This document shows, piece after piece, positions 13,119 to 54,047 of a stretch of 64,000 nucleotides of DNA. The notes under the pieces were generated by a model, which searched no databases, had not been told where the DNA came from, and worked only from the letters and a program-made list of their open reading frames with translations. The stretch covers positions 198,854-262,853 of the forward strand of contig CAVSGM010000002.1 in NCBI GenBank assembly GCA_963727485.1, given 5' to 3'. Position 1 is the stretch's first letter; each line of letters starts with the position of its first letter. Position numbers and translations under genes: made by a program. Source of the DNA: an uncultured delta proteobacterium (GTDB taxonomy: Bacteria; Myxococcota; Myxococcia; SLRQ01).

Positions 13119-16100
13119 ATGCGCATCACCCGTCGGTTCACGGTCGAGGGGGGCTCGCCCTACGACGCGTTCGAGTTCGTCGCGCGTACCAGCGAGATCC
13201 GCGATCCAGGCGGCAAGGTCGTCTTCCGGGCCGAGGACGTCCTGGTCCCCGAGCACTGGTCGCAGGTGGCCACCGACATCCTGGCCCAGAAGTACCTGCG
13301 CAAGGCCGGCGTCCCCGCGGTGGTGAAGCCCGTCGCCGAGAAGGGCGTCCCCAGGTGGCTCCAGCGCCGGGCGCCCGATGCCAAGGCCCTCGAGGCCCTC
13401 CCCGAGGCCGAGCGCCTCGGCCCCGAGCGCGACGCCCGGCAGGCCTTCGACCGCCTCGCCGGCACCTGGACCTACTGGGGCCACAAGCACGGGTACTTCG
13501 ACGGCGAGGACGACGCCCAGGCCTTCTACGACGAGCTGCGGTGGATGCTGGCGCGGCAGATGTGCGCCCCCAACTCGCCCCAGTGGTTCAACACCGGCCT
13601 CCACTGGGCCTACGGCATCGACGGGCCGCCCCAGGGCCACTGGTACGCCGACCCCAAGACCGGCGAGCTCAAGCGCTCCGAGAGCGCCTACGAGCACCCC
13701 CAGCCCCACGCCTGCTTCATCCAGTCCGTCGGCGACGACCTGGTGAGCGAGGGGGGCATCATGGACCTGTGGACCCGGGAGGCGCGCCTGTTCAAGTACG
13801 GCTCCGGGACCGGGACCAACTTCTCGGCGCTCCGGGGCGAGGGCGAGCCGCTCTCCGGCGGCGGGCGCAGCAGCGGCCTGATGAGCTTCCTCAAGATCGG
13901 CGACCGCGCCGCCGGGGCCATCAAGAGCGGCGGCACCACCCGCCGGGCCGCCAAGATGGTCTGCCTCGACCTCGACCACCCGGACATCGAGCAGTTCGTG
14001 GACTGGAAGGTCAACGAGGAGCAGAAGGTCGCCGCCCTGGTGGCCGGCTCCAAGGCCTGCTCGGTGAACCTCACCGCGGTCATGGCCGCCTGCCACACCG
14101 ACACCGTCGCCGGCGACGACCGCTTCGATCCCGAGGCCAACGCGGTCCTCAAGGACGCCGTCCGCGCCGCCCGGAAGGCGTACGTCCCCGCCGCCTACAT
14201 CCAGCGCTGCATCCAGCTCGCCCGCCAGGGCTTCAGCGGGGTGGAGTTCCCGGTCTACGACACCGACTGGCAGTCCGAGGCCTACGTCACCGTCGCCGGC
14301 CAGAACTCCAACAACTCGGTGCGCATCCCCGACGCCTTCATGAAGGCGGTCCTCGAGGACGGCAAGTGGGTCCTCACCCGGCGCACCGACGGCAAGGCGG
14401 CCAAGACCCTCGAGGCGCGCGACCTCTGGGAGCGCATCGCCTCGGCGGCCTGGAGCTGCGCCGACCCGGGCCTCCAGTTCGACTCCACCATCAACGCCTG
14501 GCACACCTGCCGCCCCGACGGGCGGATCAAGGCGTCGAACCCCTGCTCCGAGTACATGTTCCTCGACGACACGGCCTGCAACCTGGCGTCGGTGAACCTC
14601 ATGACCCTGGTCGACGCCGAGGGCAACTTCGACGTCGAGGGGTTCCGCCACGCCATCGAGGTGTGGACGGTGGTCCTCGAGGTCAGCGTCCTCATGGCCC
14701 AGTACCCGAGCCGGGCCATCGCCGAGCGCTCCTACTGGTACCGGACCCTGGGGCTCGGCTACGCCAACCTCGGCGCGGTGCTCATGCGCCTCGGGCTCCC
14801 CTACGACAGCGACGCCGGCCGGGCCTTCTGCGGGGCGGTGAGCGCCGTCCTCACCGGCACCGCCTACGCCACCAGCGCCCGGATGGCCGCCGAGCTCGGG
14901 GCCTTCCCCCGCTACGACGACAACGCCGAGGCGATGCTCCGGGTCATCCGCAACCACCGGCGCGCCGCCTACGCCGCCGCCGACGCCGACTACGAGGACC
15001 TCGAGGTTCCGCCGGTGGGCCTCGACGCCCGCCGCGCCCCCAAGGCGCTCCTCTCCGCCGCGCGCAACGCCTGGGACGAGGCCCTCGAGCTCGGCGAGGC
15101 CCACGGCTTCCGCAACGCCCAGGCCACCGTGATCGCCCCCACCGGGACCATCGGCCTGGTGATGGACTGCGACACCACCGGCATCGAGCCCGACTTCGCC
15201 CTGGTGAAGTTCAAGAAGCTCGCCGGCGGCGGGTACTTCAAGATCATCAACCAGTCGGTGCCCCCGGCCCTCACGCGCCTCGGGTACTCCGACGCCCAGG
15301 TCGCCGACATCGTCGCCTACGTGAAGGGCACCGGCACCCTGAAGGGCGCCCCGGGGGTGAGCCAGGCCGCCCTCAAGGAGAAGGGCTTCACCGACGCCGA
15401 CCTCGCCCGGGTCGACCAGGCCCTGGCGTCGGCCTTCGACATCACCTTCGCCTTCAACCGCTGGACCCTCGGCGACGCGCTGGTCACCGGCCGCCTCGGC
15501 GTCCCCGAGGACGAGCTGGCCCGGCCCGACTTCGACCTCCTCGCCTGGCTCGGCTTCGAGGCCGAGGACGTCCGGGCCGCCTCGGACCACGCCTGTGGGA
15601 CCATGACCATCGAGGGGGCGCCGCACCTCGACGAGGCGCACCTGCCCATCTTCGACTGCGCCAACCGGTGCGGCCGCTACGGCAAGCGCTTCATCGCCGC
15701 CGACGCGCACATCAAGATGATGTCCGTGGCCCAGCCGTTCATCTCCGGCGCCATCAGCAAGACCATCAACATGCCCGCCGAGGCCAGCGTCGAGGACGTG
15801 AAGCACGGCTACCTGCTGTCCTGGCGCCTGGGGCTCAAGGCCATCGCCCTCTACCGCGACGGCTCCAAGCTCTCCCAGCCCCTCTCGGCCACCTGGGCCC
15901 TCGAGGACGTGGACGACGAGGCGCTCCCGGTGGCGGCCGTGGCCTCGCCCGAGGAGGCCGCCGAGCGCATCGTCCTACGCTACCTCGCCCGGCGCCACCG
16001 CCTCCCACACCGGCGCGGCGGCTACACCCAGAAGGCCATCGTGGGCGCCCACAAGGTCTACCTGCGCACCGGCGAGTACCAGGACGGGCAGCTCGGCGAG

Positions 16101-16739
16101 GTGTTCATCGACATGCACAAGGAGGGCGCCGCCTTCCGGAGCCTGATGAACTCCTTCGCCATCGCCGTGAGCCTCGGCCTCCAGTACGGCGTGCCCCTCG
16201 AGGAGTTCGTCGAGGCCTTCGTCTTCAGCCGCTTCGAGCCCAACGGCATCGTCGAGGGCAACGACCGGATCAAGATGGCCACCAGCGTCATCGACTACAT
16301 CTTCCGGGAGCTGGCGGTGACCTACCTCGGGCGCAACGACCTGGCCCACGTCCAGGAGGAGGACCTGCGCCACGACGCCATCCACCGCGCCGAGGCCGAG
16401 CCCGAATACGAGGAGGAGGTCGTCCTCGAGGCGGGCGGGGCCCCGATCCCCATCCGCCACGCCCGGGCCTCCGAGGTCGTCGCCAGCGCGGTGGCCGGCG
16501 GGGCCACCCAGGTGGCGGCCGCGGGGAGCCAGGTGGCGGCCGGGGGGAGCCAGGTCCGGGCCGTCTCCGGGGGCCGGCGCGTGGCACCTCGGGGCGGCCA
16601 GCGCCTGGACGCCATCGCCGTGGCCCGGGCCCAGGGCTACGAAGGCGAGCCCTGCTCCGAGTGTGGCCAGATGACCATGGTCCGCAACGGCACCTGCCTC
16701 AAGTGCGTGAGCTGCGGCTCGACCTCGGGCTGCAGCTGA
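13119..16739 (+). CDS. nrdJ: Vitamin B12-dependent (class II) ribonucleotide reductase
   Basis: 1206-aa ORF; [21 protein letters not shown]...[21 protein letters not shown]...; C-terminal CSECGQ...CLKCVSCG zinc-finger tail; RBS GGAGG. Confidence 0.9.
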
Positions 16740-18258: not shown

Positions 18259-19666
18259 ATGCTCCCGCGGATGCGCCGATTCGCACTGCTGGCTGTCGCC
18301 CCGATCCTCGTCCTCGCTGCCTGCGGCCCCGTGCCGCCCGGGGGCGGTACCGACGGAGGCACGCCCGCCGCCCAGGTCGATCCCCGAATCCAGGCGCTGT
18401 GGGATCACCCGGCGGCCTGCGGGATGGCCGACTACCACTGGCTCCACGATCCCCGCATCGGCACGGTGGTGGGCTACCAGCCGGCGAACCCCGACCACAT
18501 CAGCACCAGTGACCTGGAGTCGGTGCTCGGGCAGGTCGGCTTCAAGGTCGGCCGGCCCTTCGACTACGACGTGAAGATCTACCGCTACCGGTACTGGACC
18601 CAGGACCGCGGGCAGATGGTCCAGGCCACCGGGCTCTTCGCCGTGCCCCAGGTGGGCGGGAACGCCGACCAGGCGTTCCCCATGGTCCTCTACCTCCACG
18701 GGACCTCGGGCTTCAACGACGACTGCGCCCCCTCCCGGGATCTCCTCGGGGGCGTTGCAGGTCGCGGCCCTGGCGTCCTTCGGGTACGTCGTCAGCGCCC
18801 CCGACTACCTGGGGATGGACGGCTGGGGCGCCCCCTCGACCCAGATGCACCCCTACCTGGTCGCCGAGCCCACGGCCATCGCCAGCCTCGACGCCCTCCG
18901 GGCGGGCCGGCGGATGCTCCAGATGGGCCTCGGGGGCAAGGCCACCGCCGTGCCCCACAAGTACATGATCCTCGGCGGCTCCCAGGGGGGCCACGCGGCG
19001 CTGTTCACCTCCCGGTACTCGCCCTACTACGCGCCGGAGGAGAAGCTCGTCGCCGTCGCCGCCTCGGTGCCCCCCGCCGACCTCGTCGACGAGGCGGCGC
19101 GCGCGGCCCAGCAGCTGGTGTCCGCCTCGGGCAACACCGCGGCGGCCATCGTGGGCTACTCGGACTGGTACGGCCTGGACATCTCCAGCGCCCTGATGCC
19201 CCCCTACGACACCGAGCTGCCCCCGGCGATGTCCCACGGCTGCCAGCTCTCGGGCATCGATCCCGTCCCCACCTCGGTGGACCAGGTCTTCACCCAGGGC
19301 TTCCGCGACGCCGCCGCCGCGGGCTTCCCCGACACCCCCGACGACACCTGGGGCTGCCTGCTCCGGCAGAACAGCCTCACCTCCACGCCCATCGCCCGCC
19401 TCCAGACCGTCCCCACCTTCTGGGAGCTCTCCGAGGACGACACCCTGGTGAACACGCCCATCGAGCAGAAGAGCTTCGACACCCTCTGCGCCCAGGGCAT
19501 GAAGATCCAGTACCTGGAGTGCGCCGGGGTGGGGCACACCGGCGGCGCCATCGGCTCCATCGCCGAGCAGACCCACTTCCTCGACGACCGGTGGGCCGGC
19601 AAGCCCTGGCCCGCGGCCGACATCTGCCACCGGACCGCCCCGGTGGTCTGCTCCGGGAACAAGTAG
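18259..19666 (+). CDS. Secreted lipoprotein, alpha/beta-hydrolase (lipase/esterase-like), frame change near 18735-18757
   Basis: Lipoprotein signal MRRFALLAVAPILVLAACG; N-term in ORF 18208 frame, remainder in ORF 18755..19666 with GGSQGGHAA nucleophile-elbow-like motif. Confidence 0.6.
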
Positions 19667-19692
19667 GGCGCGGGGCCGGGGGCGACCGGGCC

Positions 19693-20214
19693 TCAGGGCC
19701 CGGCGCGGAGGGCGGGCAGCGCCGCCGCGCCGGCGTGCGCGAACCGGGCGCAGGCGGACTGCCTCGGCGCCAGGCGCACCAGGAGCAGGAGGCACCCGGC
19801 GGCGATGGCCAGGTTTGGCCAGTGCCCCTGCACCGCGTAGACCACCGCGTCGAAGGCCCCCGCGGCGAAGATCAGGCCCCAGGGGATCGAGAGCCGCGCC
19901 CCGTAGGCGAGGACCAGCCGCGCGCCATCGCCGAGCTCCGGGGCGCCGGCGGGCCAGGTGCCATGGGCGATCTTGTAGAGGAGCCCGCGGCGGTAGGGCC
20001 CCCACACCAGGGCGGCGGTGAACAGGAAGGTCGCCGCCACCACCACGCCCGCGGGGACGATGAGGCCGATCTTGGGGTTGGCGGCCGGGGGCGCGAGGGC
20101 CTGGAGGGCGCCGGCGGCGGCGACCCCGACCCCGAGGAGGCCGGTGAGGATGCCATGGCGCCACCGCTGGCGCGGCGGGACCCGGACGGTCGGCAGTGGG
20201 GTGGGATCGGCCAT
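19693..20214 (-). CDS. Small integral membrane protein (hypothetical)
   Basis: Internal Met (codon 198) of ORF 19693..20805: MADPTPLPTV...GLLGVGVAAAGALQALA...IVPAGVVVAATFLFTAALVWG...; hydrophobic segments. The upstream part of the ORF is GC-frame read-through. Confidence 0.5.
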   Translation of the reverse strand: MADPTPLPTVRVPPRQRWRHGILTGLLGVGVAAAGALQALAPPAANPKIGLIVPAGVVVAATFLFTAALVWGPYRRGLLYKIAHGTWPAGAPELGDGARLVLAYGARLSIPWGLIFAAGAFDAVVYAVQGHWPNLAIAAGCLLLLVRLAPRQSACARFAHAGAAALPALRAGP

Positions 20215-20326
20215 GAAGCTCGCGGCGCGGCAGGGTAGCACTTCCGACCGGGCGGCACCCGATGGTTTCGAGGCGGGCTGCCTGCTACCATCAGATTTTG
20301 CCCGGGGCGACCCCGCGTCGAATCGC

Positions 20327-21898
20327 ATGATCGATTTCGCACGGTTCGAAGACCTCCACATCGTCCGGAAGATTCGCGAGAAGATCCGGGGGTGGTGGAA
20401 CATCGAGCTCTCGTATGCCGACGAGAGCGGGTACGTCCTCGACCACGCCCAGGGGAAGATCGTTCCGCCCCACAACGACCTCTGCCAGGGATCCCTGGGG
20501 CACCGCGAGGGCTTCCAGCGGTGCAACACCTCGGTGGAGCGGGCCATCGCCCAGATCCGCGGCGAGACCGAGATCCGGGCCCGGGTGGTCCAGACCTGCC
20601 ACCTGGCCTTCCCCCTGGTCCTGGTGCCGGTGGTCGATGACCTGGGGGTGTTCCACGGCGCCATCTTCGCCGGGGGCTTCCTCATCGACGACGAGGTCGA
20701 CGACCGGCGCCGGCGCATCCTCGACGAGACCGCCCGCCAGGGGCTCCCGGTGGCCGATCCCGACCAGGCCTTCGCCGGGATCCCGGTGATCCGGCGCCGC
20801 GACATGGACTACTTCTGCGACCTCCTCGAGACCACCGTCGAGGAGATCGTCGAGTTCAACAAGGCCCTGCGCGAGCGCGAGACCCGCATCGAGGCCCTCA
20901 CCGGCGAGCTCGAGGGGCGCTACCGGTTCGGCAACATCGTGGGCAAGTCCCCGGCGATGCGCCGGCTCTTCTCGCTGCTGGAGAAGGTGGTGCAGTCGGA
21001 CAGCACCATCCTGGTCACCGGGGCGAACGGCACCGGCAAGGAGCTCATCGCCCGGGCGCTCCACTACAACGGGCCGCGGGCCCGGGGCCCCTTCGTGGTC
21101 CAGAACTGCTCGGCGCTCAACGACAACCTCCTGGAGAGCGAGCTCTTCGGCCACGTGAAGGGCGCGTTCACCGGCGCCACCCGGGACAAGCAGGGCCTGT
21201 TCAAGGTGGCCGACGGGGGCACCTTCTTCCTCGACGAGGTCGGGGACATGTCCATGGCCATGCAGGTCAAGCTCCTCCGGGTCCTCCAGGAGGGCACCTT
21301 CATCCCCGTGGGCGGGACCGGCGCGGTGAAGGTCGACGTCCGCATCATCACCGCCACCAACCGCGACCTGAAGCAGATGGTCGAGCGCCGGGAGTTCCGC
21401 GAGGACCTCTACTACCGCCTCAACGTCATCAACGTGGAGGTGCCCCCCCTCCGGGACCGCAAGGAGGACCTGCCGCTCCTGGTGGCCCACTTCCTGGAGC
21501 AGCACGTCGACGGCCGGGGGCCCAAGCGCCTGGCCTCCGAGATCATGGCCCGGTTCTACGCCTACGACTGGCCCGGGAACGTCCGGGAGCTGGAGAACGA
21601 GATTGAGCGGCTGGTGGTCCTCTCCGGCGAGGGCGAGCTCATCGACGAGGGGGTCCTCGACGTGGCCACGCGCCCCTACCCGGAGGCGGCGAACCCGGCG
21701 CGCCTCGCCGGGAAGGGAGACCTCGCCAGCGCGGTTGCGGCCCTGGAGCGCGAGATGATCCGCGAGGGGCTGGTCGCCACCCACTGGAACAAGACGCGAC
21801 TGGCCGAGCGCCTCGGGGTCTCGCGCACTACGCTCATCAAGAAGATCAAGGAGTACGGCCTCGAGGAGCGGGGGAACCCGCTGGCCGAGGGGCACTGA
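20327..21898 (+). CDS. Sigma-54-dependent transcriptional activator with a non-receiver N-terminal Cys/His-containing sensory domain
   Basis: MIDFARFEDL...; AAA+ core GKSPAM...TGANGTGKEL...GAFTGA...GTFFLDEVGDM...ESELFGH...; C-terminal HTH; N-terminal about 190 aa has no receiver Asp motif. Confidence 0.85.
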   Translation: MIDFARFEDLHIVRKIREKIRGWWNIELSYADESGYVLDHAQGKIVPPHNDLCQGSLGHREGFQRCNTSVERAIAQIRGETEIRARVVQTCHLAFPLVLVPVVDDLGVFHGAIFAGGFLIDDEVDDRRRRILDETARQGLPVADPDQAFAGIPVIRRRDMDYFCDLLETTVEEIVEFNKALRERETRIEALTGELEGRYRFGNIVGKSPAMRRLFSLLEKVVQSDSTILVTGANGTGKELIARALHYNGPRARGPFVVQNCSALNDNLLESELFGHVKGAFTGATRDKQGLFKVADGGTFFLDEVGDMSMAMQVKLLRVLQEGTFIPVGGTGAVKVDVRIITATNRDLKQMVERREFREDLYYRLNVINVEVPPLRDRKEDLPLLVAHFLEQHVDGRGPKRLASEIMARFYAYDWPGNVRELENEIERLVVLSGEGELIDEGVLDVATRPYPEAANPARLAGKGDLASAVAALEREMIREGLVATHWNKTRLAERLGVSRTTLIKKIKEYGLEERGNPLAEGH

Positions 21899-21902
21899 CG
21901 CC

Positions 21903-22679
21903 ATGGCTGGCCACGATCCCCGCACCCCCACCGCCGGCGCGGTCATCATCGGCAACGAGGTCCTCTCGGGGAAGGTCCGCGACGCCAACACCCCGTTCCT
22001 CGTCGACACCCTCCGGAGCCTGGGGGTGGCGCTCAAGCGGGTGAGCATCGTCCCCGACGAGTGCGACGCGGTGGTCGAGGCGGTGGCCAGCGCCCACGAC
22101 GCCTTCGACCACGTGTTCACCTCCGGCGGCGTCGGCCCCACCCACGACGACATCACCATCGCCTGCGTCGCCTCGGCCCTCGGCCGTCCGGTGATCCGCG
22201 ACCGCGGCCTCGAGGCCCAGCTCCGCCGCCTCTTCGGCGAGCGCCTCAAGGAGGCGCACCTGCGCATGGCCGACGTCCCCGAGGGCACCGAGCTCATCAC
22301 CGGCCCGGGGGTGACCGTCCCGGTGATGAAGGTGGAGAACATCTTCATCCTCCCCGGGGTCCCGGACCTCTTCCAGGAGAAGGTCCTGGCCATCGCCGAC
22401 CGCCTCGCCGGGACGCCCTACCACGTGCGCTACGTCTACGTGACCCTGGGCGAGGGGACCCTGGCGCCGATCCTCGACGCGCTGGTCTCGCGCTTCCCCG
22501 ACGTGGACGTGGGCAGCTACCCGCGCTTCGACGCCGCCGACTACCGGGTGCGCGTCACCCTCGAGTCCAAGGACCCGGCGCGGACCACCGCCGCCACCGA
22601 GGCGCTCCTGGGGCGCCTGCCCTCCGAGCGGGTGGTGCGGGTCGAGGACCCCCAGGCGACCGCCGCCGACGTCGCCTGA
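21903..22679 (+). CDS. Molybdopterin-binding (MoCF-biosynthesis/CinA N-terminal-like) domain protein
   Basis: AGAVIIGNEVLSGKVRDANTPFL...FTSGGVGPTHDDIT motif typical of MogA/MoaB/CinA-type domains. Confidence 0.75.
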   Translation: MAGHDPRTPTAGAVIIGNEVLSGKVRDANTPFLVDTLRSLGVALKRVSIVPDECDAVVEAVASAHDAFDHVFTSGGVGPTHDDITIACVASALGRPVIRDRGLEAQLRRLFGERLKEAHLRMADVPEGTELITGPGVTVPVMKVENIFILPGVPDLFQEKVLAIADRLAGTPYHVRYVYVTLGEGTLAPILDALVSRFPDVDVGSYPRFDAADYRVRVTLESKDPARTTAATEALLGRLPSERVVRVEDPQATAADVA

Positions 22680-39890: not shown

Positions 39891-39965
39891 GCGCGCGTAA
39901 CTCAGCGGTAGAGTGCCACCTTCACACGGTGGAAGTCGCTGGTTCGAACCCAGCCGCGCGTACCA
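39891..39965 (+). tRNA. tRNA-Val (anticodon CAC)
   Basis: GCGCGCGTAACTCAGCGGTAGAGTGCCACCTTCACACGGTGGAAGTCGCTGGTTCGAACCCAGCCGCGCGTACCA: 7-bp acceptor stem, D-stem ACTC/GAGT, anticodon stem CCACC/GGTGG with loop TTCACAC, T-arm GCTGG-TTCGAAC-CCAGC, encoded CCA. Confidence 0.9.
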
Positions 39966-40029
39966 TCTTCCCGCGCCCGCTCCCCCAGGTTGGGGGGCGG
40001 GCGCGGGCTTCTCGACGCCGCGCCTACTG

Positions 40030-41568
40030 ATGGCTGCTTCCGAGCGCAGGCCCCGGGCCCTGGTCGTCGACGACGACGACGGGATGCGTGGGAACATGGC
40101 CCACATCCTCGAGGCCGACGGCTTCGAGACGGTGGGCGCGGTCGACGGGATGGACGCCCTGGGGCGGCTCGAGCGCGCCAGCTTCGACATCGCCCTCCTC
40201 GACATCCAGATGCCGGGCATCGACGGCCTGGAGACGCTGAAGCGGATCCGGGAGAAGGCGCCGGAGGTCGAGGTGGTGATGGTCACGGTGCTCAAGGAGA
40301 TCCCCAAGGTCGTCGAGGCGATGAAGCTCGGGGCCTTCGACTTCCTCACCAAGGACTTCCGGGCCAGCGAGCTGCAGCTCAAGGCCCAGCAGGCCCTGAC
40401 CCACAGGCGCACCGCCCGGCAGATGGCCTACCTCCGCGACGAGGTGGAGCGACAGGCCCCCGGCGAGATGATCATGGGCGACGGGCCGGCGATGCGCGAG
40501 GTGTCGACCCTGGTCGACAAGGTGGCGCCGCTCCCCGCCACGGTGCTGGTCCTCGGCGAGAGCGGGACGGGCAAGGAGCTGCTGGCCAGGCGTCTCCACC
40601 GCATCTGGTCCGGGGGCGACAAGAAGAAGCCCTTCGTCACGGTGAACCTGGCGGCGATGCCCGCCAGCCTCATCGAGTCCCAGCTCTTCGGGCACGAGAA
40701 GGGGGCGTTCACCGGGGCCACCGAGCAGCGCCTGGGGAAGTTCGAGCTCGCCGACGGAGGCACGCTCTTCCTCGACGAGATTGGCGAGCTGCGCCTCGAT
40801 CTCCAGGCGAAGCTCCTGCGCGCCATCCAGGAGCGCGAGGTGGAGCGCCTCGGGGGCAAGCGTCCGGTGCCGGTGGATGTCCGGCTCATCACCGCCACCA
40901 ACGTCGACCTCAAGGAGGCGGTCCACGCCGGTCGCTTCCGTGAAGACCTCTACTACCGCATCAACGTCATCCCCATCCGGCTGCCGCCCCTGCGCGAGCG
41001 CATCGAGGACGTGCCGGTGCTGGCGCGGCACTTCGCCCGGAAGGCGGGGCAGCGGTTCAACCGGCCAGTGCCCGAGCTCACCGACACGGCGCTCGAGGTG
41101 CTGATGCGCTACCCCTGGCCCGGGAACGTCCGGGAGCTGGAGAACCGCATCGCCGGGCTGGTGGCGGTGCAGGACCGGCCGGTCATCGACGACGTGGACC
41201 TGCCCATCGAGTTCAGCTACCCGCGCTTCTACGACGAGGCCCGGCGCAAGAAGGCGGACGGGCTGGCGGTGGCGCTCACGGCCTTCGAGCGGTCGTTCAT
41301 CGCCATGACCCTGGAGAAGACGGGGTGGCACCGGAAGCAGGCGGCGGCGGAGCTGGGCATCGGCTACTCGACGCTGAAGAAGAAGCTCAAGAAGCTGGGT
41401 GCTCGCGCCGCCCGGGGGGCGCCACGCCGACGGGGACCCGGACGGCGACGACGACGAGGGGTGAGCCCTCACCGGCGCCGGAGGGACGTGGCGCGCGTGG
41501 CCGGCGTCGTCAGGCGGCGTCGGGGGACGACTCGGCCACCGGGGGACTGGCGCGCCGGGGCAGGGTGA
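40030..41568 (+). CDS. NtrC-family sigma-54-dependent response regulator (receiver, AAA+, HTH) with Arg-rich C-terminal extension
   Basis: MAASERRPRALVVDDDDG...DIALLDIQMPGIDG (receiver) ...GESGTGKELLA...GAFTGA...ELADGGTLFLDEIGEL...AAELGIGYSTLKKKLKKLG (HTH); the last about 55 aa are low-complexity and overlap the convergent kinase gene, so the true stop may be earlier. Confidence 0.85.
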   Translation: MAASERRPRALVVDDDDGMRGNMAHILEADGFETVGAVDGMDALGRLERASFDIALLDIQMPGIDGLETLKRIREKAPEVEVVMVTVLKEIPKVVEAMKLGAFDFLTKDFRASELQLKAQQALTHRRTARQMAYLRDEVERQAPGEMIMGDGPAMREVSTLVDKVAPLPATVLVLGESGTGKELLARRLHRIWSGGDKKKPFVTVNLAAMPASLIESQLFGHEKGAFTGATEQRLGKFELADGGTLFLDEIGELRLDLQAKLLRAIQEREVERLGGKRPVPVDVRLITATNVDLKEAVHAGRFREDLYYRINVIPIRLPPLRERIEDVPVLARHFARKAGQRFNRPVPELTDTALEVLMRYPWPGNVRELENRIAGLVAVQDRPVIDDVDLPIEFSYPRFYDEARRKKADGLAVALTAFERSFIAMTLEKTGWHRKQAAAELGIGYSTLKKKLKKLGARAARGAPRRRGPGRRRRRGVSPHRRRRDVARVAGVVRRRRGTTRPPGDWRAGAG

Positions 41569-43288
41569 CCACGAAGACGGCGCCGCCGCTGGGGCGGTTC
41601 CCGGCGGAGACGGTGCCCCCCTGCTCCTCGACGATGCGACGGACCACGGCGAGGCCGAGGCCGAGGCCGTTGCCCGAGCCCTTGGTGGTGCGGAAGGCGT
41701 CGAAGAGGTCGTGGAGGAGCGCCGGGGGGATGCCCGGGCCGTCGTCCTCGACCACCACGGTGACCCGGCTCGCCTCGAGGCCGACGCGGAGGGTGACGTG
41801 TCCCCCGTGGTCGCGGAGGGCGTCGAGGGCGTTCTCCACGAGGTTGCGCACGGCGCGCTCGAGGGCCAGGGCGTCGACCTCGACCATGGGGTCCCCGTCG
41901 CCCTCGACGACCAGGGCGAGGGAGATGCCGCGGGTGCGGGCGGTGGCGGTGAGGCTGCCCTCGAGGCGACGGAGGAGGTCGGGGAGGAGCACCGGCGCGG
42001 CCTCGGCCTCCCGGGGGTTGGCGAACTCCGAGAGGTCGGCGAAGAGCCGGTCGATGTAGGCCTGCTCCCGGTCGAGGTTCGCCTCGAGGTCTTGGCGGGT
42101 GGCCTCGGTCTCGGGGATGTCGAGGAAGGTCCGGACGTGGGTGATGAGGTGCTGGAACGGGCGCTTGAGATCGTGGGCCAGCCCGCCGGCGATGCGGCCG
42201 AAGAACGCCAGGCGCTCCTGGCGGCGAATCTCCTGGGTGAGGGTGCCGAGGTCCTCGGCCATGTGGTTGAAGCCCCGGGCCAGGTCGCCGAGCTCGTCGG
42301 GGCGGTCGTGGTGGACGCGGACGGTGAAGTCGCCCTCGCCGATGCGCCGGGCGCCGGCGGCGAGGCGCTCCACGGGGTTGACGATGGTCCGGGCGCCGAT
42401 GAAGGTCACGGTGCCCACGGCGAGGAGCGCCGCGAAGAGCACGATGAGCAGGCCGAGGCCGAGCGCCCGCGCCTGGGCGAAGGCGTCCCGCGCAGGTGTC
42501 TCCACCACGGCGACCCAGTCGGTGCCCGGGACGGAGGCGGCGGCGCCGACCACCTGCAGCCCGTCGCGGCGGTCATAGGTCGCCGACACGGCGCCGCCGT
42601 CCTTCTCCACCTCGTTCACGATCTTCGGGGTGGGGTAGGGGCGGCGCTGGATGGCGTAGACGAGCTCCTTGGCGATGCCGTGGGCGAAGAGGTGCCCGTG
42701 GCGGTCGACGAGGTAGGTGTAGCCGGTGCGACCGAGGCGCAGGTCGCGGACCATGGACCACAGCTCCAGGGTGTCGACCTCGGCGGCGAGCGCCCCCACG
42801 GTCCGCCCGAGGCGGTGGACCGGCACGGCCACGGCCATCACCGGCAGCAGGTCGTCGCCGATGACCACCTGGGTCACCTGGGGCTTGCCGGTGGCCAGGG
42901 TCTTGTCCGCGGCGCCGCGCACCAGCTTGGAGGGCCCCTTGTCCGGCAGCAAGGTGCTGAAGGTCCGTTTGCCCCCGTGGTCGAAGTCGACCAGGTAGCG
43001 CAGGGTGCGGTCCTCGAGGAGCGCCCGCGCCAGCACCCGGTCGGTCTCGGTGGCGTCGAGCCCGTTGCCCGGGCTCACCGCCGCCCCCACCGCCCGCACC
43101 ACGTCCACGCGCCCGCGGACGAAGGCCCCGACCCGCTTGGCCACCTCCGACGCCGCCGCCCGGGTCCCGGCGGTCACGCCCTCCTGCGCCCCGCGGATTC
43201 CGGACCAGGTGGCGTAGACCCCGTAGGCGCCGAGGGGAAAGAGCGTGGTGAGCGCCAGGAAGAGCAGGAGCTTGGCGCGCAGGCGCAT
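41510..43288 (-). CDS. Sensor histidine kinase (two TM segments, periplasmic sensor domain, HAMP, HisKA, HATPase)
   Basis: MRLRAKLLLFLALTTLFPLGAYGVY (TM1), about 270-aa extracytoplasmic region, LGLGLLIVLFAALLAVGTVTFIGA (TM2), ...FFGRIAGGLAHDLKRPFQ (H-box)...ENALDA...GNGLGLGLAVVRRIVE... Confidence 0.85.
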   Translation of the reverse strand: MRLRAKLLLFLALTTLFPLGAYGVYATWSGIRGAQEGVTAGTRAAASEVAKRVGAFVRGRVDVVRAVGAAVSPGNGLDATETDRVLARALLEDRTLRYLVDFDHGGKRTFSTLLPDKGPSKLVRGAADKTLATGKPQVTQVVIGDDLLPVMAVAVPVHRLGRTVGALAAEVDTLELWSMVRDLRLGRTGYTYLVDRHGHLFAHGIAKELVYAIQRRPYPTPKIVNEVEKDGGAVSATYDRRDGLQVVGAAASVPGTDWVAVVETPARDAFAQARALGLGLLIVLFAALLAVGTVTFIGARTIVNPVERLAAGARRIGEGDFTVRVHHDRPDELGDLARGFNHMAEDLGTLTQEIRRQERLAFFGRIAGGLAHDLKRPFQHLITHVRTFLDIPETEATRQDLEANLDREQAYIDRLFADLSEFANPREAEAAPVLLPDLLRRLEGSLTATARTRGISLALVVEGDGDPMVEVDALALERAVRNLVENALDALRDHGGHVTLRVGLEASRVTVVVEDDGPGIPPALLHDLFDAFRTTKGSGNGLGLGLAVVRRIVEEQGGTVSAGNRPSGGAVFVVTLPRRASPPVAESSPDAA

Positions 43289-44925: not shown

Positions 44926-46254
44926 CTAGGCCGCCACTTCCTCCGAGGGCATCCGGCCCTCGTAGAACTCGTCGAGGTAGCGCCGCTTCAGGGTCTCGCG
45001 GCCCACCGTGTCGAAGTAGTCGTGCTCACAGCTCACGCCGAGGGTGCCGTTGCGGCGGTAGGTCGTCGCCCGGCAACCGCCGGCGCACACGGGCAGGTAC
45101 TCGCACTGGCCGCAGTCCTTCACCGGGTCGAGGCTCTCGAGGAGCTCGACGCGGGGCAGCCAGCGGTCGTCGGTGATCCGGCCGACGGCCATCTTCGGAT
45201 CGCCCACCAGGACGTCGCACTTGTAGAGGTAGCCGCCGGCGTCGACGAGCAGGTACTGGTCCATGTGGAGGCCACAGGGGCCGAGGCCGAACTCGGGCTC
45301 GGGGCTGAGGCCCGAGCTCACCGCCTTCATCTGGAGGTGGACCAGGCCGTCGGGGTCGGCGTCGGAGATGCGGGTGGCGCAGTCGCCGTCGCCGCGTCCG
45401 TCGAGGACCGGCTTGAACTTCAGCTCGCTGATGGCGTCGGCGAGCCCCTCGCGGCGCAGCACGTCGGCGAGCTCGCCGTACGCGTGCTCGAGGCCCGCGG
45501 GCACGTTGCTGCCGATGTGGATGCGCACCCGCCCGGCGACCGCCTTGAGGTTCGCGAGGATCTGGTCCCAGGAGCCCGTCCCGTCCTTGCGAACCCGGCT
45601 CTGGTCGTGGTGGTGCTTGGGCCCGTCGAGGGTGACCTTGACCGACTCGAGCCCCAAGGGCGCCATGGCGTCGACGAAGGGCCGGTCGAGGAGGGCGCCG
45701 TTGGTGATGATCCGGCAGCTGAAGGCGCGACCGTCCTCGGCGAGCTCGCGCTGGAAACGCTCGGCGGTGCGGAGGATGAGGGGCTTCTTGAGGAGCGGCT
45801 CGCCGCCGAAGTAGGTGAGCTCCAGGGTGTGGAGGTCGTAGCGGGCCATCCGGCGCCGGACCCAGCCGTGGAGCGCCTGCTCCACCGTCTTGCCCATCCC
45901 CGGCCCGCTGGGGCCACCCTCGGCCTCGTAGCAGTAGGGGCACCCGAAGTTGCAGTTCTCGGTGACCAGCACCCGCAGGCGCAGCACTCCGTCGCCCTGC
46001 TTCATCCCCAGCATGAAGTCGCGGAGGGCGGCGTCGTCGGCGACCTCGTCCTCGACGAGGAAGCCCTCGGCCGAAAGGTAGTCGACCTCCTCCTGCTCGA
46101 GGGCGCTCGCCGGCGGCCCGCCCGACAGGGACCCGACCCAGCCGAGGGCCCGGTCGTCGAGGCCGACCAGGTTGTCGGTCAGGGTGTTGTAGAGGACGTG
46201 CTCCCCGGGGAGTGGGAAGTCTCGGATGAGGACGTGGAACCGGGTGAGCTGCAT
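44926..46254 (-). CDS. Radical SAM/SPASM-domain protein (peptide-maturase-like), 442 aa
   Basis: MQLTRFHVLIRDFPLPGEHVLYNTLTD... about 95-aa N-terminal domain, then VTENCNFGCPYCYE (CxxxCxxC), GGEPLL; C-terminal auxiliary-cluster motifs C-x18-C and CGQCEYLPVCAGGC (Cx2Cx5Cx3C) plus terminal VSC; GGGAG RBS. Confidence 0.85.
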   Translation of the reverse strand: MQLTRFHVLIRDFPLPGEHVLYNTLTDNLVGLDDRALGWVGSLSGGPPASALEQEEVDYLSAEGFLVEDEVADDAALRDFMLGMKQGDGVLRLRVLVTENCNFGCPYCYEAEGGPSGPGMGKTVEQALHGWVRRRMARYDLHTLELTYFGGEPLLKKPLILRTAERFQRELAEDGRAFSCRIITNGALLDRPFVDAMAPLGLESVKVTLDGPKHHHDQSRVRKDGTGSWDQILANLKAVAGRVRIHIGSNVPAGLEHAYGELADVLRREGLADAISELKFKPVLDGRGDGDCATRISDADPDGLVHLQMKAVSSGLSPEPEFGLGPCGLHMDQYLLVDAGGYLYKCDVLVGDPKMAVGRITDDRWLPRVELLESLDPVKDCGQCEYLPVCAGGCRATTYRRNGTLGVSCEHDYFDTVGRETLKRRYLDEFYEGRMPSEEVAA

Positions 46255-46299
46255 GGGGTGTCTCCCTGAATCGCCCCCCGAGAGAGCAGGGAGCGTGCC

Positions 46300-46660: not shown

Positions 46661-46741
46661 GGCGCAGCCGCTCCTAGGCGAGCCCTCAGGTCTCACCCTA
46701 GAGCCAGTGGTGGCACGCCGCTGGCAAAAGAGACCAGTGCA

Positions 46742-50502: not shown

Positions 50503-51582
50503 ATGCGACCGGCGACCCGCCACCTGGGCCACGGGGTCAGGGCCACTCTCCGCCACCTGCCCCTGGTGGCCCTCCAGGCCTCCGTGGACCTCACCGCGAG
50601 CCTGGCGGCCCTGCTCCCGGCGGTGGTCGCCGCGGTCCTGGTGGTGCGCCACGCCGTCACGCTGGTCTCGGCCCTGCCCCCGACCCGCAACCCCCTGGCC
50701 CTCGCCGCGGCGGAGCTGCTGGGCTACCTCCTCTCGGCGCGCTTCCTGATGCCGGTGGTGGGCCTCGCCGCGGCCGGGGCGCTGCTGGTGGCGATGATGC
50801 GGGTCCTCTATCTCACCGGCGCCCTGGGCCTCCTCGCCGGCGACCTCCGCGCGGGTGGCCGGGCGCCGGCCGGCGGCTTCATGGACGCGGTGGTCGCCCG
50901 GTTCCCGGCGGCCCTCGCCGTGGTCGCCCTCATGGGGGTCGCGGGCCTCGCGGTGGCGGGCCTGGTCGCGGGCCTGGTGGGCGCCGCCGGCGCCGTGTTC
51001 GCCGCCGGGCCCTCGGTGGCGAGCGCCGCGGGCCTCGCCCTCGCCGGGAGCCTGACGGTGGTCCTGCTCGCGATCTTCGAGGCCGTCCGGCACCTCGCCC
51101 TGGTCCGCACCGTGGCCCTCGGCGAGGGCCCGGGTGTGGCCACCTACGAGGCCGGGGCCCTGGTCCTCCGGCGTCCCGGGACCCTCCTCGCCCTGGGGGT
51201 CCTGCTCCTTGGCGTCGAGCTGGCCGTGGCGGTGATCTTCGCCAGCGCCACCGGGATGCAGGGCCTCCTCCCCGCCGCCGCCGCGGCCACCGGATGGGCC
51301 GTCGGCGCCCGGGTCGTAGGCGAGGTCACGGCCACCGTGGCCCTCGCCGTGGTCGGCGTGGTCGCCTGGGGCGCCCTGGTGTCCCTGGCCCTCGATGACG
51401 CCGGGGCGCTCCCGCCGGACCCCGAGCCCGCGCCCCGGTCGACCCCGCCCGCACCCGCGCCGGCGGTCCCGGCGCGGCGGGTGTCCCTCGCCCGGCCCGT
51501 GTCGGAGGTGTGGCCGCCGGCGCCGGCGCCTCAGGCCGACGCCCCGGGCGACGACGCCTCAGACGACGACCCCTCGGCGTAG
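50503..51582 (+). CDS. Polytopic membrane protein (hypothetical), Ala/Leu/Val-rich
   Basis: Multiple hydrophobic segments (LVAGLVGAAGAVFAAG, LTVVLLAIFEAV, VALAVVGVVAWGALVSLAL); low-complexity, so the exact frame/start is uncertain. Confidence 0.45.
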   Translation: MRPATRHLGHGVRATLRHLPLVALQASVDLTASLAALLPAVVAAVLVVRHAVTLVSALPPTRNPLALAAAELLGYLLSARFLMPVVGLAAAGALLVAMMRVLYLTGALGLLAGDLRAGGRAPAGGFMDAVVARFPAALAVVALMGVAGLAVAGLVAGLVGAAGAVFAAGPSVASAAGLALAGSLTVVLLAIFEAVRHLALVRTVALGEGPGVATYEAGALVLRRPGTLLALGVLLLGVELAVAVIFASATGMQGLLPAAAAATGWAVGARVVGEVTATVALAVVGVVAWGALVSLALDDAGALPPDPEPAPRSTPPAPAPAVPARRVSLARPVSEVWPPAPAPQADAPGDDASDDDPSA

Positions 51583-52463
51583 CACCCGAGCCGGTCCCGG
51601 AAGAACTTCTCGAGGCGCAGGTTGAGCAGCTCCGGCTGCTCGATGGGCGCCGCGTGGCTCCCCTTGGGGATCACCAGCAGCTCGGCGTCGGGGATGAGGT
51701 CGGCCATCTCCTCGGAGAGCCACATGGGCGTGAAGGTGTCGAGCTCGGCGCCGACCACCAGGGTGGGCACGTCGACGTGCCCCAGGTGGTCCCGGGTGCT
51801 GTGGGCCGCGGCGTGGGAGAGGAGCCGCACGAAGACCTCCGGGTCCATCTTCCCCAGGTGGTCGAAGTAGGGCTGCATGTCCTCCCAGCGGATGAGCGAG
51901 CGGTTCACCTCCCCGGCGAGGAAGGCGAGGAGCCAGGCCATCCGCGAGGGGAGCAGCGCCCGCCACAGCCCCACCACCGCCCCGGGGAAGCCTTCGAGGA
52001 TCCGGTTGATGTAGGGCAGGCCCTCCTTGAGGGCGGCGGTGCCGTGGAAGGTGTCCAGGGGCCGGCCGTAGCTGCCGCAGACCAGCACCAGGGCGGCGAC
52101 GCGCCCGGGCATGCGCCGGTGGGCCTCGAGGACCACCTGCACCCCCACCGAGTGCCCGGCGAGGATGGCGCGCTCGCTGCCGGCGGCGTCGAGGACGGCG
52201 CCGAGGTCGCCCACCAGGTCCTCGATGGCCATGCGGTCGAGGTCCCGGGGCGTCGCCGAGCGTCCGTGGCCCCGGTAGTGCCAGCGGATCACCCGGTGCC
52301 GGTCGGCGAAGGCGGGCACCACGTACTTCCACACGAAGCCGTCGCAGCCGATGCCGTCGCAGAGCACCAGGTCCGGTGCCGTGGGGCGGTCGGGCCCGGC
52401 GATGGTGTAGTAGATCGACGTCCCGTCGGACGCCTGGCAGAACCCCTCGGTGTAGCGCTCCAT
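51531..52463 (-). CDS. Alpha/beta-fold hydrolase
   Basis: MERYTEGFCQASDGTSIYYTIAGPDRPTAPDLVLCDGIGCDGFVWKY...AILAGHSVGVQVVLEA (GHSxG nucleophile elbow). Confidence 0.8.
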   Translation of the reverse strand: MERYTEGFCQASDGTSIYYTIAGPDRPTAPDLVLCDGIGCDGFVWKYVVPAFADRHRVIRWHYRGHGRSATPRDLDRMAIEDLVGDLGAVLDAAGSERAILAGHSVGVQVVLEAHRRMPGRVAALVLVCGSYGRPLDTFHGTAALKEGLPYINRILEGFPGAVVGLWRALLPSRMAWLLAFLAGEVNRSLIRWEDMQPYFDHLGKMDPEVFVRLLSHAAAHSTRDHLGHVDVPTLVVGAELDTFTPMWLSEEMADLIPDAELLVIPKGSHAAPIEQPELLNLRLEKFFRDRLGCYAEGSSSEASSPGASA

Positions 52464-52480: not shown

Positions 52481-54047
52481 TCAGCGTGCGGCCTGGCGCG
52501 GCTCCTCGAGGCCGTACTTCTCACACTTCGCGATGAGGTTCGAGCGGCTCACGCCCAGCTCGCGCGCGAGGCGCGACTTGTTCCAGTGGGTGCGGATGAG
52601 CCCCTGGTGGATCATCTCCCGCTCCAGGGCCTCGACGGCGTGCTTGAGCTTGCCGGTGGTCTTGATGGGGCTGACCCCCTTGGGCGTCCCCACCGCGTCG
52701 CGGATCCGGGGGCTGACCAGGTCGACCCCGAGCTCGCCGTCGTCGGCGCCGAGGACCAGGAGCCGCTCGAATCTCGTTCTCGAGCTCGCGGATGTTCCCG
52801 GGCCAGTCGTAGGTGCCCAGCAGCTCGAGGCACTCGCGCGCGAGGGTCCGGGCGTCGCCGTTGCCGTGCTTGCGCAGGAAGTGCTCCACCAGCAGGGGGA
52901 TGTCGTCGCGGCGCTCGCGCAGGGCCGGGACGTCGATCTTGATGACGTTGATCCGGTAGTAGAGGTCCTCGCGGAACTCGCCGGCCTCGACCATCTTGGC
53001 CAGGTCCTTGTGGGTGGCGGCGATGACCCGGACGTCGACCTCCCTGGCGGAGGTCCCGCCCACCGGCGTGAAGGTGCCCTCCTGGAGCACCCGGAGGAGC
53101 TTGACCTGGAGGGTGGGGGACATGTCCCCGACCTCGTCGAGGAAGAAGGTCCCGCCGTCGGCGACCTCGAAGAGGCCCTTCTTGTCCTTGATGGCGCCGG
53201 TGAACGCGCCCTTCACGTGACCGAAGAGGGCGCTCTCCAGGAGGTTGTCGTTGAACGCCGAGCAGTTCTGGACCACGAACGCCTTGTCCTTGCGCGGCCC
53301 GTTGTAGTGGATGGCCCGGGCGACCAGCTCCTTGCCGGTGCCGCTCTCCCCGTGGACCAGGACCGTGGAGTCGGAGTTGCACACCTTCTCCAGGACCCGG
53401 TAGACGTCCTGCATCGCCTGGCTGGAGCCGATGATGGACTCGAAGCGGTAGCGCTCGGAGAGCTCGTCGGAGAGGTGCTGGATCTCCCGGTCGCGCTTGC
53501 CCATCTCCAGCTCGAAGGCGGCAATCTCGTCGGCGCCGAACTCGAGGAGGTCGCAGAGCTTCTCCACGCCCTCCGGGGGGATCACCGGGAGCCGCTGGAC
53601 GGCCCGGTCGAGGTCGGTGGCCCCGGGGTTGAGCACCCGGATCCGCGAGCTGGCCTGCTCGACCTGCCGCTCGGTGAGATCCTCCCGGAGGAAGCCACCG
53701 ACGAACATGAAGCCCTTGTACTCGGAGGCCACCACGATGGGGCAGCCGACGATGGTGAACCCCAGGTGGCAGTCGTGGAAGAGGCAGCGCCTGGGCTTCT
53801 TGCTGGCGCGGAACTTGTCGCCGACGAACTTCACCGACTCGTTGCAGCGCCGAAAGCCCTCCTTGGAGAAGAGCGAGAGGCGGCAGAAGTCGTTGTTCGG
53901 GGGGATGATCTGGCCGTTGGCGTGCTCGAGGACGTAGCCGGTCTTGTCGGCGAAGGCGAGCTCGAGGCCCCACCACTTGCGGATCACGTCCCGCAGCATG
54001 ATGATGGTGTGCAGGTTCTGGTAGCGCTCGTACTCCTGCAACGCCAT
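52481..54047 (-). CDS. Sigma-54-dependent transcriptional activator, paralogue of the 20327-21898 gene (same N-terminal Cys/His domain), frame change near 52765-52775
   Basis: MALQEYERYQNLHTIIMLRDVIRKWWGLELAFADKTGYVLEHANGQIIPPNNDFCRLSL...KEGFRRCNESV...; AAA+ core GESGTGKELVA...GAFTGA...GTFFLDEVGDM; HTH tail ...HWNKSRLARELGVSRSNLIAKCEKYG in ORF 52481..52693 frame; [11 protein letters not shown]. Confidence 0.8.

What the first reader, a model, noticed from the sequence alone, without database searches (positions are those of the whole stretch)
20327..21898. Two paralogous sigma-54 activators share an unusual N-terminal domain with conserved Cys/His positions
The activators at 20327-21898 (+) and 52481-54047 (-) have no receiver domain. 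Both carry a similar about 190-aa N-terminal domain (ELSYADESGYVLDHAQGKIVPPHNDLCQGSL...REGFQRCNTSV...CHLAF versus ELAFADKTGYVLEHANGQIIPPNNDFCRLSL...KEGFRRCNESV...CHLGF) with conserved Cys, His and an RCN motif. That pattern suggests a metal-, redox- or small-ligand-sensing input domain; I cannot assign it to a named family with confidence.
Basis: partly seen in the sequence, partly recalled or inferred. Interest (0 to 1): 0.5.

Follow-up and report, generated by a model that had tools for sequence, protein, structure and literature searches.

The report
Two PocR-sensor sigma-54 activators
The two genes encode sigma-54 transcription activators whose shared N-terminal domain is the already named PocR small-molecule sensor domain; the conserved Cys/His residues are that family's signature, so the finding is real but largely ordinary.

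Summary
Both genes encode sigma-54 enhancer-binding proteins (EBPs) with no receiver domain. Their N-terminal 200 residues are 38% identical (E 1e-47). The domain is not unassignable: both copies score above the Pfam cut-off for PocR (PF10114), and a profile comparison with Salmonella PocR gives 91% probability. The model (pLDDT 95.8) is a GAF/PAS-like fold followed by a 43-residue helix into the AAA+ domain. The Cys/His positions (EBP1 C53, C66, C91, H92) are invariant across EBP-, AraC- and kinase-type PocR proteins. They are kept or lost as a set: 4/4 in 79 homologues, 0/4 in 14, never 1/4. The residues needed for the propanediol response of Salmonella PocR (R51, D64, Q107) are L, V and G here, so the ligand probably differs and is less polar. 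The paralogues are two old Myxococcota orthogroups. EBP1 sits between tmk and a CinA-N-like gene. EBP2 is always followed by an alpha/beta hydrolase. The window's EBP2 has one extra base (52769-52771) that separates its DNA-binding domain. No ligand, metal or target promoter could be assigned. Verdict: new members of a known kind, low to moderate interest.

The parts
20327..21898 (+). EBP1: intact sigma-54 activator, 523 aa (PocR sensor, signalling helix, AAA+, lid, Fis-type HTH)
   Evidence: Translation; Pfam domains; Walker A GANGTGKE, GAFTGA, Walker B FFLDE and FREDLYYR found.
20444..20854 (+). EBP1 PocR domain, Pfam match at residues 40-176. The globular sensor spans about residues 1-156.
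   Evidence: PF10114 scores 29.7 bits against a cut-off of 23.9. hhalign against enterobacterial PocR gives 91% probability. The AF2 model has pLDDT 95.8.
20483..20602 (+). Stretch holding the CCCH signature codons of EBP1: C53 (20483-20485), C66 (20522-20524), C91-H92 (20597-20602)
   Evidence: These columns are invariant in alignment A3 across EBP-, AraC- and kinase-type PocR proteins. CCCH is present in 93 of 116 homologues. Retention is all-or-none.
20795..20923 (+). Long helix, residues 157-199, linking the sensor to the AAA+ domain (signalling-helix or coiled-coil type linker)
   Evidence: DSSP on the model shows helix H157-199.
20936..21436 (+). EBP1 sigma-54 interaction (AAA+) domain, residues 204-370
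   Evidence: PF00158, E 4.1e-70; GAFTGA at residue 279.
21734..21856 (+). EBP1 Fis-type HTH, residues 470-510
   Evidence: PF02954, E 5.4e-13.
21903..22679 (+). CinA-N-like gene (MoCF_biosynth + FLAD1_M), 4 nt after the EBP1 stop codon; conserved partner of the EBP1 orthogroup
   Evidence: Pfam; NCBIfam; found downstream of EBP1 orthologues in L001-L003.
52481..54047 (-). EBP2: paralogous PocR sigma-54 activator, 521 aa once one base is removed
   Evidence: It is 74% identical to the L004 orthologue and 62-66% to Archangium and Vitiosangium orthologues, all unbroken.
53523..53969 (-). EBP2 PocR domain, residues 27-175; CCCH = C55, C68, C93, H94
   Evidence: PF10114 scores 58.0 bits; alignments.
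52769..52771 (-). One-base insertion (frameshift) in EBP2, after the AAA+ lid motif ENEI
   Evidence: Three-frame translation; DNA comparison with six orthologues.
52514..52636 (-). EBP2 Fis-type HTH, out of frame with the N-terminal 423 codons
   Evidence: PF02954, E 2.6e-10 on the repaired protein; frames shown.
51531..52463 (-). Alpha/beta hydrolase, 17 nt downstream of EBP2; conserved partner of the EBP2 orthogroup
   Evidence: Abhydrolase_1, E 2.8e-22. It lies immediately downstream of EBP2 in all 11 other clear EBP2 orthologue loci that hold downstream sequence (L004-L012, L014, L021, L051, with L015 excluded as cut off; plus weakly in L017). Best PDB hits are esterase 5egn and RsbQ 1wom.

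Best explanation
Both genes encode bacterial enhancer-binding proteins in which a cytoplasmic PocR sensor domain replaces the usual receiver domain. The PocR domain has a GAF/PAS-like fold. A long helix joins it to the AAA+ sigma-54 activation domain and a Fis-type HTH. The Cys-Cys-Cys-His set is the defining signature of the PocR family. The first two Cys positions behave as buried. By secondary-structure position the set lines the canonical PAS-type pocket: helix 51-57, helix 60-77 and the turn after strand 86-90. It most likely forms one unit next to the ligand site, with a bound metal such as zinc as the likeliest reading. The inferred mechanism is that a small molecule binds the sensor, the signal passes through the helix, and the AAA+ domain assembles into an active ring that opens sigma-54 promoters elsewhere in the genome. 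The three residues required for the 1,2-propanediol response of Salmonella PocR are replaced here by Leu, Val and Gly with an adjacent Phe. These proteins are therefore not diol sensors and probably bind a less polar compound. The two copies are ancient paralogues with different recognition helices and different conserved neighbours, so they probably have different signals and regulons. Shown: the architecture, family membership, fold class, conservation pattern and synteny. Inferred: metal binding, the nature of the ligand, the direction of regulation and the targets.
Against: No coordinates were available, so the spatial clustering of the four residues was not measured. Adjacent C91-H92 rarely both bind the same metal ion. 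No ligand, metal or DNA target was identified. No sigma-54 promoter lies next to either gene or its orthologues, so there is no functional read-out. The PocR score of EBP1 is only 6 bits above the cut-off. EBP2 as sequenced cannot make a full-length protein.
Confidence: 0.65

Rival explanations
1. Redox, O2/NO or metal-ion sensor. The Cys3His set binds an iron-sulfur cluster or a redox-active metal, or forms reversible disulfides. Its oxidation state or occupancy, rather than an organic ligand, switches the AAA+ domain.
For: There are four potential ligands that are strictly conserved and lost together. By secondary structure they sit in the PAS-type cofactor pocket. From established knowledge: PAS and GAF domains of other regulators carry Fe-S (NreB) or non-haem iron (the EBP NorR), and Cys3His ligation occurs in IscR and mitoNEET.
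Against: The same CCCH set is invariant in Salmonella PocR, whose characterised signal is 1,2-propanediol sensed through R51 and D64. The family therefore uses the set in an organic-ligand sensor. The family spans strict anaerobes and aerobic myxobacteria, which argues against an O2-labile cluster as a shared feature. Where the two buried Cys are lost, they are replaced by hydrophobic residues, which fits a structural site. There is no experimental evidence either way.
Confidence: 0.15
2. Bipartite hydrolase-sensor module, for EBP2 only. The conserved downstream alpha/beta hydrolase supplies the signal to the PocR domain, either by producing its ligand or by direct contact. This would resemble RsbQ acting on the PAS domain of RsbP, with a sigma-54 AAA+ output.
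For: The hydrolase gene lies immediately downstream of EBP2, by 17 nt in the window. It holds that position in every clear orthologue locus with downstream sequence: the window, a Myxococcia MAG, Archangium and Vitiosangium. The catalytic motifs GHSVG and a C-terminal His are visible in the sequence. RsbQ (1wom) is the second-best PDB hit over the full length, E 3.2e-14, and KAI2/D14-type receptor hydrolases follow. The published RsbQ-PAS module has an N-terminal PAS domain, a coiled coil and variable outputs (PMC3183031). The EBP pocket is apolar.
Against: The gene order is reversed: RsbQ is always encoded upstream, next to the PAS domain. The sensor is PocR, not the RsbP-PAS class. The hydrolase is no closer to RsbQ than to ordinary esterases or PcaD-type enol-lactonases. 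Conserved adjacency may mean only co-expression, or that the hydrolase belongs to the regulated pathway. EBP1 has no such partner.
Confidence: 0.15
3. The N-terminal domain no longer senses anything. It serves only as a dimerisation or repression module, and the window's EBP2 is a decaying pseudogene, so the pair has little regulatory meaning.
For: EBP2 carries a frameshift. A subset of homologues has lost the whole CCCH set yet keeps the domain. No nearby target promoter was found.
Against: Both orthogroups are conserved at 50-79% identity across Myxococcota, and the CCCH set and pocket residues are maintained. The EBP2 sequence downstream of the frameshift is free of stops and still conserved, which points to a sequencing error or a very recent event. 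EBP1 is intact.
Confidence: 0.05

Closest known systems
Salmonella enterica PocR (AraC-family activator of the pdu and cob operons; archetype of Pfam PF10114)
   Same: The sensor domain is homologous: Pfam PocR is above threshold, and hhalign gives 91% probability over 141 columns. It has the identical C-x12-C-x(21-24)-CH signature plus the conserved P and G. Both place a small-molecule sensor N-terminal to a DNA-binding transcription activator.
   Different: The output differs: an AraC-type HTH that recruits sigma-70 RNA polymerase, against an AAA+ ATPase that remodels sigma-54 holoenzyme. Identity is only about 15%. The propanediol-response residues R51, D64 and Q107 are L, V and G here, so the ligand should differ.
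GAF-domain sigma-54 activators (NifA, Aquifex Nlh1, DhaR, NorR, FhlA)
   Different: There is no sequence-level match to the GAF or PAS Pfam models. The sensor has the PocR-specific CCCH set and extra helices after the last core strand.
XylR/DmpR/MopR-type aromatic-sensing sigma-54 activators
   Same: These are sigma-54 activators gated directly by a small hydrophobic effector that binds the N-terminal domain. From memory, not tested here: their sensor domains hold a structural zinc bound by Cys/Glu residues next to the effector pocket, a precedent for the proposed role of CCCH.
   Different: There is no match to the XylR_N or V4R models. NCBIfam MobR matches only the AAA+-HTH part, residues 190-509. 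The sensor fold family is different.
RsbQ-RsbP bipartite sensing module (PMC3183031)
   Same: A conserved gene pair: an alpha/beta hydrolase and a regulator with an N-terminal PAS-like sensor followed by a long helix.
   Different: Here the hydrolase is downstream, not upstream. The sensor is PocR, not RsbP-PAS. The output is a sigma-54 AAA+ domain, which is not among the three outputs described. No interaction has been tested.

Membership tests
Bacterial enhancer-binding proteins (sigma-54 activators) | AAA+ domain of the Sigma54_activat type with Walker A, Walker B and arginine-finger motifs | tested here: met
   PF00158 scores E 4.1e-70 and 6.5e-72. GANGTGKE/GESGTGKE, FFLDE and FREDLYYR are present in both.
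Bacterial enhancer-binding proteins (sigma-54 activators) | GAFTGA loop that contacts sigma-54 | tested here: met
   GAFTGA is at residue 279 in EBP1 and 280 in EBP2.
Bacterial enhancer-binding proteins (sigma-54 activators) | C-terminal Fis-type HTH in frame with the ATPase | tested here: inconclusive
   Met for EBP1 (PF02954, E 5.4e-13). In EBP2 the HTH is present but out of frame because of one extra base at 52769-52771. Whether this is an error or a real mutation cannot be decided from the sequence.
PocR sensor domain (Pfam PF10114) | Score above the curated Pfam gathering threshold | tested here: met
   EBP1 scores 29.7 bits and EBP2 58.0 bits against a cut-off of 23.9. The matches cover profile positions 28-159 and 20-157 of 162.
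PocR sensor domain (Pfam PF10114) | Homology to the archetypal Salmonella PocR N-terminal domain | tested here: met
   hhalign of the EBP-clade profile against a 12-sequence enterobacterial and Vibrio PocR profile gives 91.3% probability and E 9.5e-7 over 141 columns.
PocR sensor domain (Pfam PF10114) | Conserved Cys-Cys-Cys-His signature (Salmonella C47, C60, C82, H83) | tested here: met
   These columns are invariant in A3 and A4. EBP1 has C53, C66, C91 and H92; EBP2 has C55, C68, C93 and H94.
PocR proper (1,2-propanediol-responsive regulators) | Ligand-response residues R51, D64 and Q107 (PMC11264322) | tested here: not met
   They align with L57, V70 and G117 in EBP1, and with L, V and G in EBP2. 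These proteins share the domain family but are not functional equivalents of PocR.
NtrC-type response regulators | N-terminal receiver domain with a phospho-accepting Asp | tested here: not met
   Neither protein has a Response_reg hit at E <= 0.1. The third EBP in the window, 39913-41568, does have one.
GAF, PAS, or V4R/XylR_N sensor families (by sequence) | Match to the corresponding Pfam model | tested here: not met
RsbQ-PAS bipartite sensing module | Alpha/beta hydrolase encoded immediately upstream of an RsbP-class N-terminal PAS domain, with physical interaction between the two | tested here: not met
   Adjacency is conserved, but the hydrolase is downstream of the regulator and the sensor is PocR. 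The module is defined in PMC3183031. Interaction cannot be tested with these tools.
Metal-binding or Fe-S sensor domains | Four ligands within bonding distance; bound metal | not testable with these tools
   The model's coordinates are not exposed. The only support is indirect: all-or-none retention and hydrophobic replacement.

The most novel reading that the evidence does not exclude
In this reading the CCCH set of the PocR domain is a so far unrecognised metal or cofactor centre that takes part directly in sensing. The EBP2 clade, with its invariably adjacent alpha/beta hydrolase, would form a hydrolase-plus-PAS-like bipartite sensor that drives a sigma-54 AAA+ output. That would add a fourth output class to the RsbQ-PAS principle and give a mechanistic handle on the whole PocR family, whose signature residues I found no explanation for.
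Probability: 0.15. Interest if true: 0.55.

Novelty: new member of a known kind. Interest (0 to 1): 0.27.

Why it matters
For genome annotation, the main result is that the unusual domain has a name. These are PocR-domain sigma-54 activators, not NifA or HupR/HoxA as relatives are labelled in public sources. More broadly, the PocR domain is widespread: it occurs in regulators linked to propanediol, methanol and dichloromethane metabolism, and in Methanosarcina histidine kinases. I found no solved structure for it. I also found no explanation for its invariant Cys3His set in the literature I could search. The all-or-none retention pattern found here and the clade-specific pocket residues give concrete residues to mutate. 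The conserved EBP2-hydrolase pair in cultivable Archangium species offers a tractable system to find a ligand. None of this overturns current understanding.

Tried and rejected
1. The word-indexed homologue search with the EBP1 N-terminus returned only 4 proteins. The exhaustive profile search was needed.
2. The sequence search of the PDB with the N-terminal profile found nothing relevant; the best hit was E 0.82.
3. The Foldseek search against afdb50 was not available. The model's coordinates are not exposed, so Cys-Cys distances could not be measured.
4. The sigma-54 promoter scan found 37 matches with up to 2 mismatches, against 43.5 expected, and none in the intergenic regions beside either EBP. 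No match with up to 1 mismatch lies within 5 kb of any of the 12 EBP2 orthologues. Only scattered, non-conserved matches lie near EBP1 orthologues. No local target can therefore be proposed.
5. The sigma-70 promoter and terminator scans around both genes were uninformative.
6. Literature searches for PocR with cysteine or iron-sulfur, with enhancer-binding, and with Myxococcus found nothing on the function of the Cys/His set or on PocR-type EBPs. The founding paper (Anantharaman and Aravind 2005, PMID 15814558) is not held.
7. I rejected a B12 link. A class II B12-dependent ribonucleotide reductase lies upstream of EBP1 and PocR controls cob genes in Salmonella, but the synteny there (RNR, tmk) looks like housekeeping context.
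8. I rejected a His-rich gene upstream of EBP2 in Archangium as a metal-related partner, because it is absent from the window and from L004.

Full report
OBSERVATION. The gene at 20327-21898(+) translates to an intact 523-aa protein, here called EBP1. Its start is supported by homologues that begin at the same Met. The gene at 52481-54047(-), here EBP2, is present but spans 1567 nt. In the frame that starts at 54047 the protein leaves the conserved sequence right after ENEI and stops at 52521. The conserved C-terminus, including the HTH, continues in another frame to 52481. Six orthologues read GAGATCGAGCGG or GAGATTGAA where the window reads GAGATTCGAGCGG. One extra base therefore sits at 52769-52771. 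The downstream frame has no stops and still matches HTH_8. This is either a sequencing or assembly error or a very recent mutation.

Neither protein has a receiver domain. Their first 200 residues align at 38% identity, E 1e-47.

WHAT THE DOMAIN IS. Pfam assigns both N-termini to PocR (PF10114, 'sensory domain found in PocR'). The scores are 29.7 and 58.0 bits against a curated cut-off of 23.9. The rest of each protein matches Sigma54_activat, AAA_lid_14 and HTH_8. NCBIfam equivalogs match only the AAA+-HTH part, and all fall below their cut-offs.

As an independent test I retrieved genuine Salmonella PocR and compared profiles. The EBP-clade profile against a 12-sequence enterobacterial and Vibrio PocR profile gives 91.3% probability and E 9.5e-7 over 141 columns. 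The alignment places C53, C66 and C91-H92 on PocR C47, C60 and C82-H83.

Neither the sequence search nor the fold search found a solved PocR domain. [quoted passage not shown] Sensor domains of this kind, joined to NtrC-like AAA+ ATPases through a signalling helix, are an established architecture type (PMC1592074).

THE CYS/HIS PATTERN. An exhaustive profile search of 1.84 billion cluster representatives found 354 relatives at E <= 1e-3. Many are 505-535 aa long, which is the same architecture. Of 116 with residues at all four positions, 93 are C-C-C-H.

In an alignment that mixes EBP-type, Salmonella-type AraC, LytS-type histidine-kinase and long AraC-type proteins, six positions are invariant: C53, C66, C91, H92, P101 and G111. 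S69 and G94 are nearly invariant. The pattern is therefore the signature of the PocR family as a whole (F-C ... R-C-x-x-S ... C-H-x-G). It is not a peculiarity of these two proteins. The Asn of 'RCN' is specific to the EBP clade.

Retention is bimodal: 4/4 in 79 sequences, 3/4 in 6, 2/4 in 2, 1/4 in none and 0/4 in 14. In the sequences that lost the set, the first two positions carry L, F, I, V or M in 12 of 14. That is the behaviour expected of four residues working as one buried unit. A metal site that can be replaced by hydrophobic packing is one example.

By secondary structure the four residues lie on the helices and the strand end that bound the canonical PAS cofactor pocket. The literature I could search says nothing on the role of these residues.

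LIGAND. In Salmonella PocR, R51A and D64A abolish the response to 1,2-propanediol and Q107A weakens it (PMC11264322). R51 and D64 each lie four residues after the first and second signature Cys. The signature therefore sits beside the proposed effector site.

These three positions are mostly R-D-Q in the AraC- and kinase-type proteins sampled. They are L57, V70 and G117 (followed by F118) in EBP1, the same in EBP2, and mostly L/V/G-F across the EBP clade. I infer that the EBP clade does not sense short diols and has a less polar pocket. The actual ligand is unknown.

GENOMIC CONTEXT AND EVOLUTION. Full-length relatives in a species-level genome collection are all from Myxococcota or from MAGs labelled only as Proteobacteria or delta proteobacterium. 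Cluster look-ups add Silvanigrellaceae and show generic or wrong names such as NifA and HupR/HoxA.

The two window genes belong to two old orthogroups. One Myxococcia MAG carries both: L001 is 79% identical to EBP1 and L004 is 74% identical to EBP2. EBP1 and EBP2 are only about 52% identical to each other.

EBP1 orthologues lie between tmk and a CinA-N-like gene (MoCF_biosynth + FLAD1_M), which starts 4 nt after EBP1 in the window. In the window a secretory-lipase gene and a membrane ORF are inserted between tmk and EBP1.

EBP2 orthologues are followed directly by an alpha/beta hydrolase. This holds in the Myxococcia MAG, Archangium and Vitiosangium, in every clear orthologue locus with downstream sequence. 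The gap is 17 nt in the window. The hydrolase has the GHSVG nucleophile motif. Its best solved relatives are an esterase (5egn, E 7.5e-18) and RsbQ (1wom, E 3.2e-14), followed by KAI2-type proteins. NCBIfam gives only sub-threshold PcaD- and RutD-like matches.

The recognition helices of the two HTHs differ: SRTTLIKKIKEYG against SRSNLIAKCEKYG. Separate DNA targets are therefore likely. No sigma-54 promoter is found beside either gene or its orthologues.

MECHANISM. The following are shown: the domain architecture, intact ATPase and GAFTGA motifs, PocR membership, the fold class, the long linker helix, the conservation pattern and the synteny.

The following are inferred from established knowledge of GAF- and PAS-gated enhancer-binding proteins. 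Occupancy of the PocR pocket is transmitted through the helix. This controls assembly of the AAA+ ring, which uses ATP to open sigma-54 promoter complexes at distant sites bound through the HTH. Whether the sensor represses or stimulates the ATPase cannot be told from the sequence.

There are three rival readings. First, the Cys3His set could be a redox or Fe-S centre. That is possible, but the same set is present in the propanediol sensor PocR and in both aerobes and strict anaerobes. Second, the conserved hydrolase could feed the signal to EBP2, as RsbQ does for the PAS domain of RsbP (PMC3183031). The analogy is attractive, but the gene order is reversed, the sensor class differs and no interaction has been tested. 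Third, the domain could be a non-sensing dimerisation or repression module, with the window's EBP2 a decaying pseudogene.

VERDICT. It is not an unassigned or unusual domain, but the named PocR family, and the Cys/His set is that family's hallmark. These are new members of a known kind. They have two modestly interesting features: a clade-specific apolar pocket and a strictly conserved hydrolase partner for one paralogue. One open question concerns the whole PocR family, namely what the Cys3His set does.

Noticed in passing
window 52769-52771 (-): EBP2 carries a one-base insertion that puts its Fis-type HTH out of frame. All orthologues examined are unbroken, and the downstream frame is still clean, so this is a sequencing error or a very recent inactivation.
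   Followed up: yes
window 46286-46300 (-), with gene 44929-46254 (-): TGGCACgctccCTGC is the best intergenic sigma-54 -24/-12 match in the window. It lies 32 nt upstream of the ATG of a radical-SAM gene (Pfam Radical_SAM, Fer4_12) and follows about 500 bp of non-coding DNA with palindromes (46255-46760). It could be a target of any of the three sigma-54 activators in the window.
   Followed up: partly
window 39913-41568 (+) and 41513-43288 (-): A third sigma-54 activator, of the classical receiver-AAA+-HTH type, lies convergent with a dCache-HAMP histidine kinase. The window therefore holds three enhancer-binding proteins.
   Followed up: partly
window 18755-20244: A secretory-lipase (LIP) gene at 18755-19666(+) and a 183-aa membrane ORF at 19693-20244(-) lie between tmk and EBP1. 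They are not found at that position in the orthologous loci L001-L003 and L016, which suggests an insertion.
   Followed up: partly
window 13119-16739 (+): A class II (B12-dependent) ribonucleotide reductase with a TSCPD domain lies upstream of tmk and EBP1. It is syntenic in L001. I judged this to be housekeeping context rather than a link to PocR-B12 biology.
   Followed up: partly
proteins P0098, P0116, P0119, P0123, P0125, P0126, P0142 and others: Fourteen PocR-like homologues, several of them full-length sigma-54 activators, have lost all four Cys/His signature residues at once. The first two positions are replaced by hydrophobic residues in most of them.
   Followed up: partly
protein P0004: This 231-aa metagenomic ORF on a 931-nt contig has a dCache match. 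Its last 45 or so residues are 86% identical to the EBP1 segment it aligns with, which looks like a chimeric or rearranged contig.
   Followed up: no
L021 8886-9944 (-) and L017 8898-9995 (-): In Archangium, a His-rich ORF (…HRESDHDHDHAHEDECGGHGHAHG…) lies divergently upstream of the EBP2 orthologue. It is absent from the window and from L004.
   Followed up: no
window 49703-50389 (-): A LexA repressor gene lies about 1.1 kb beyond the alpha/beta hydrolase gene.
   Followed up: no
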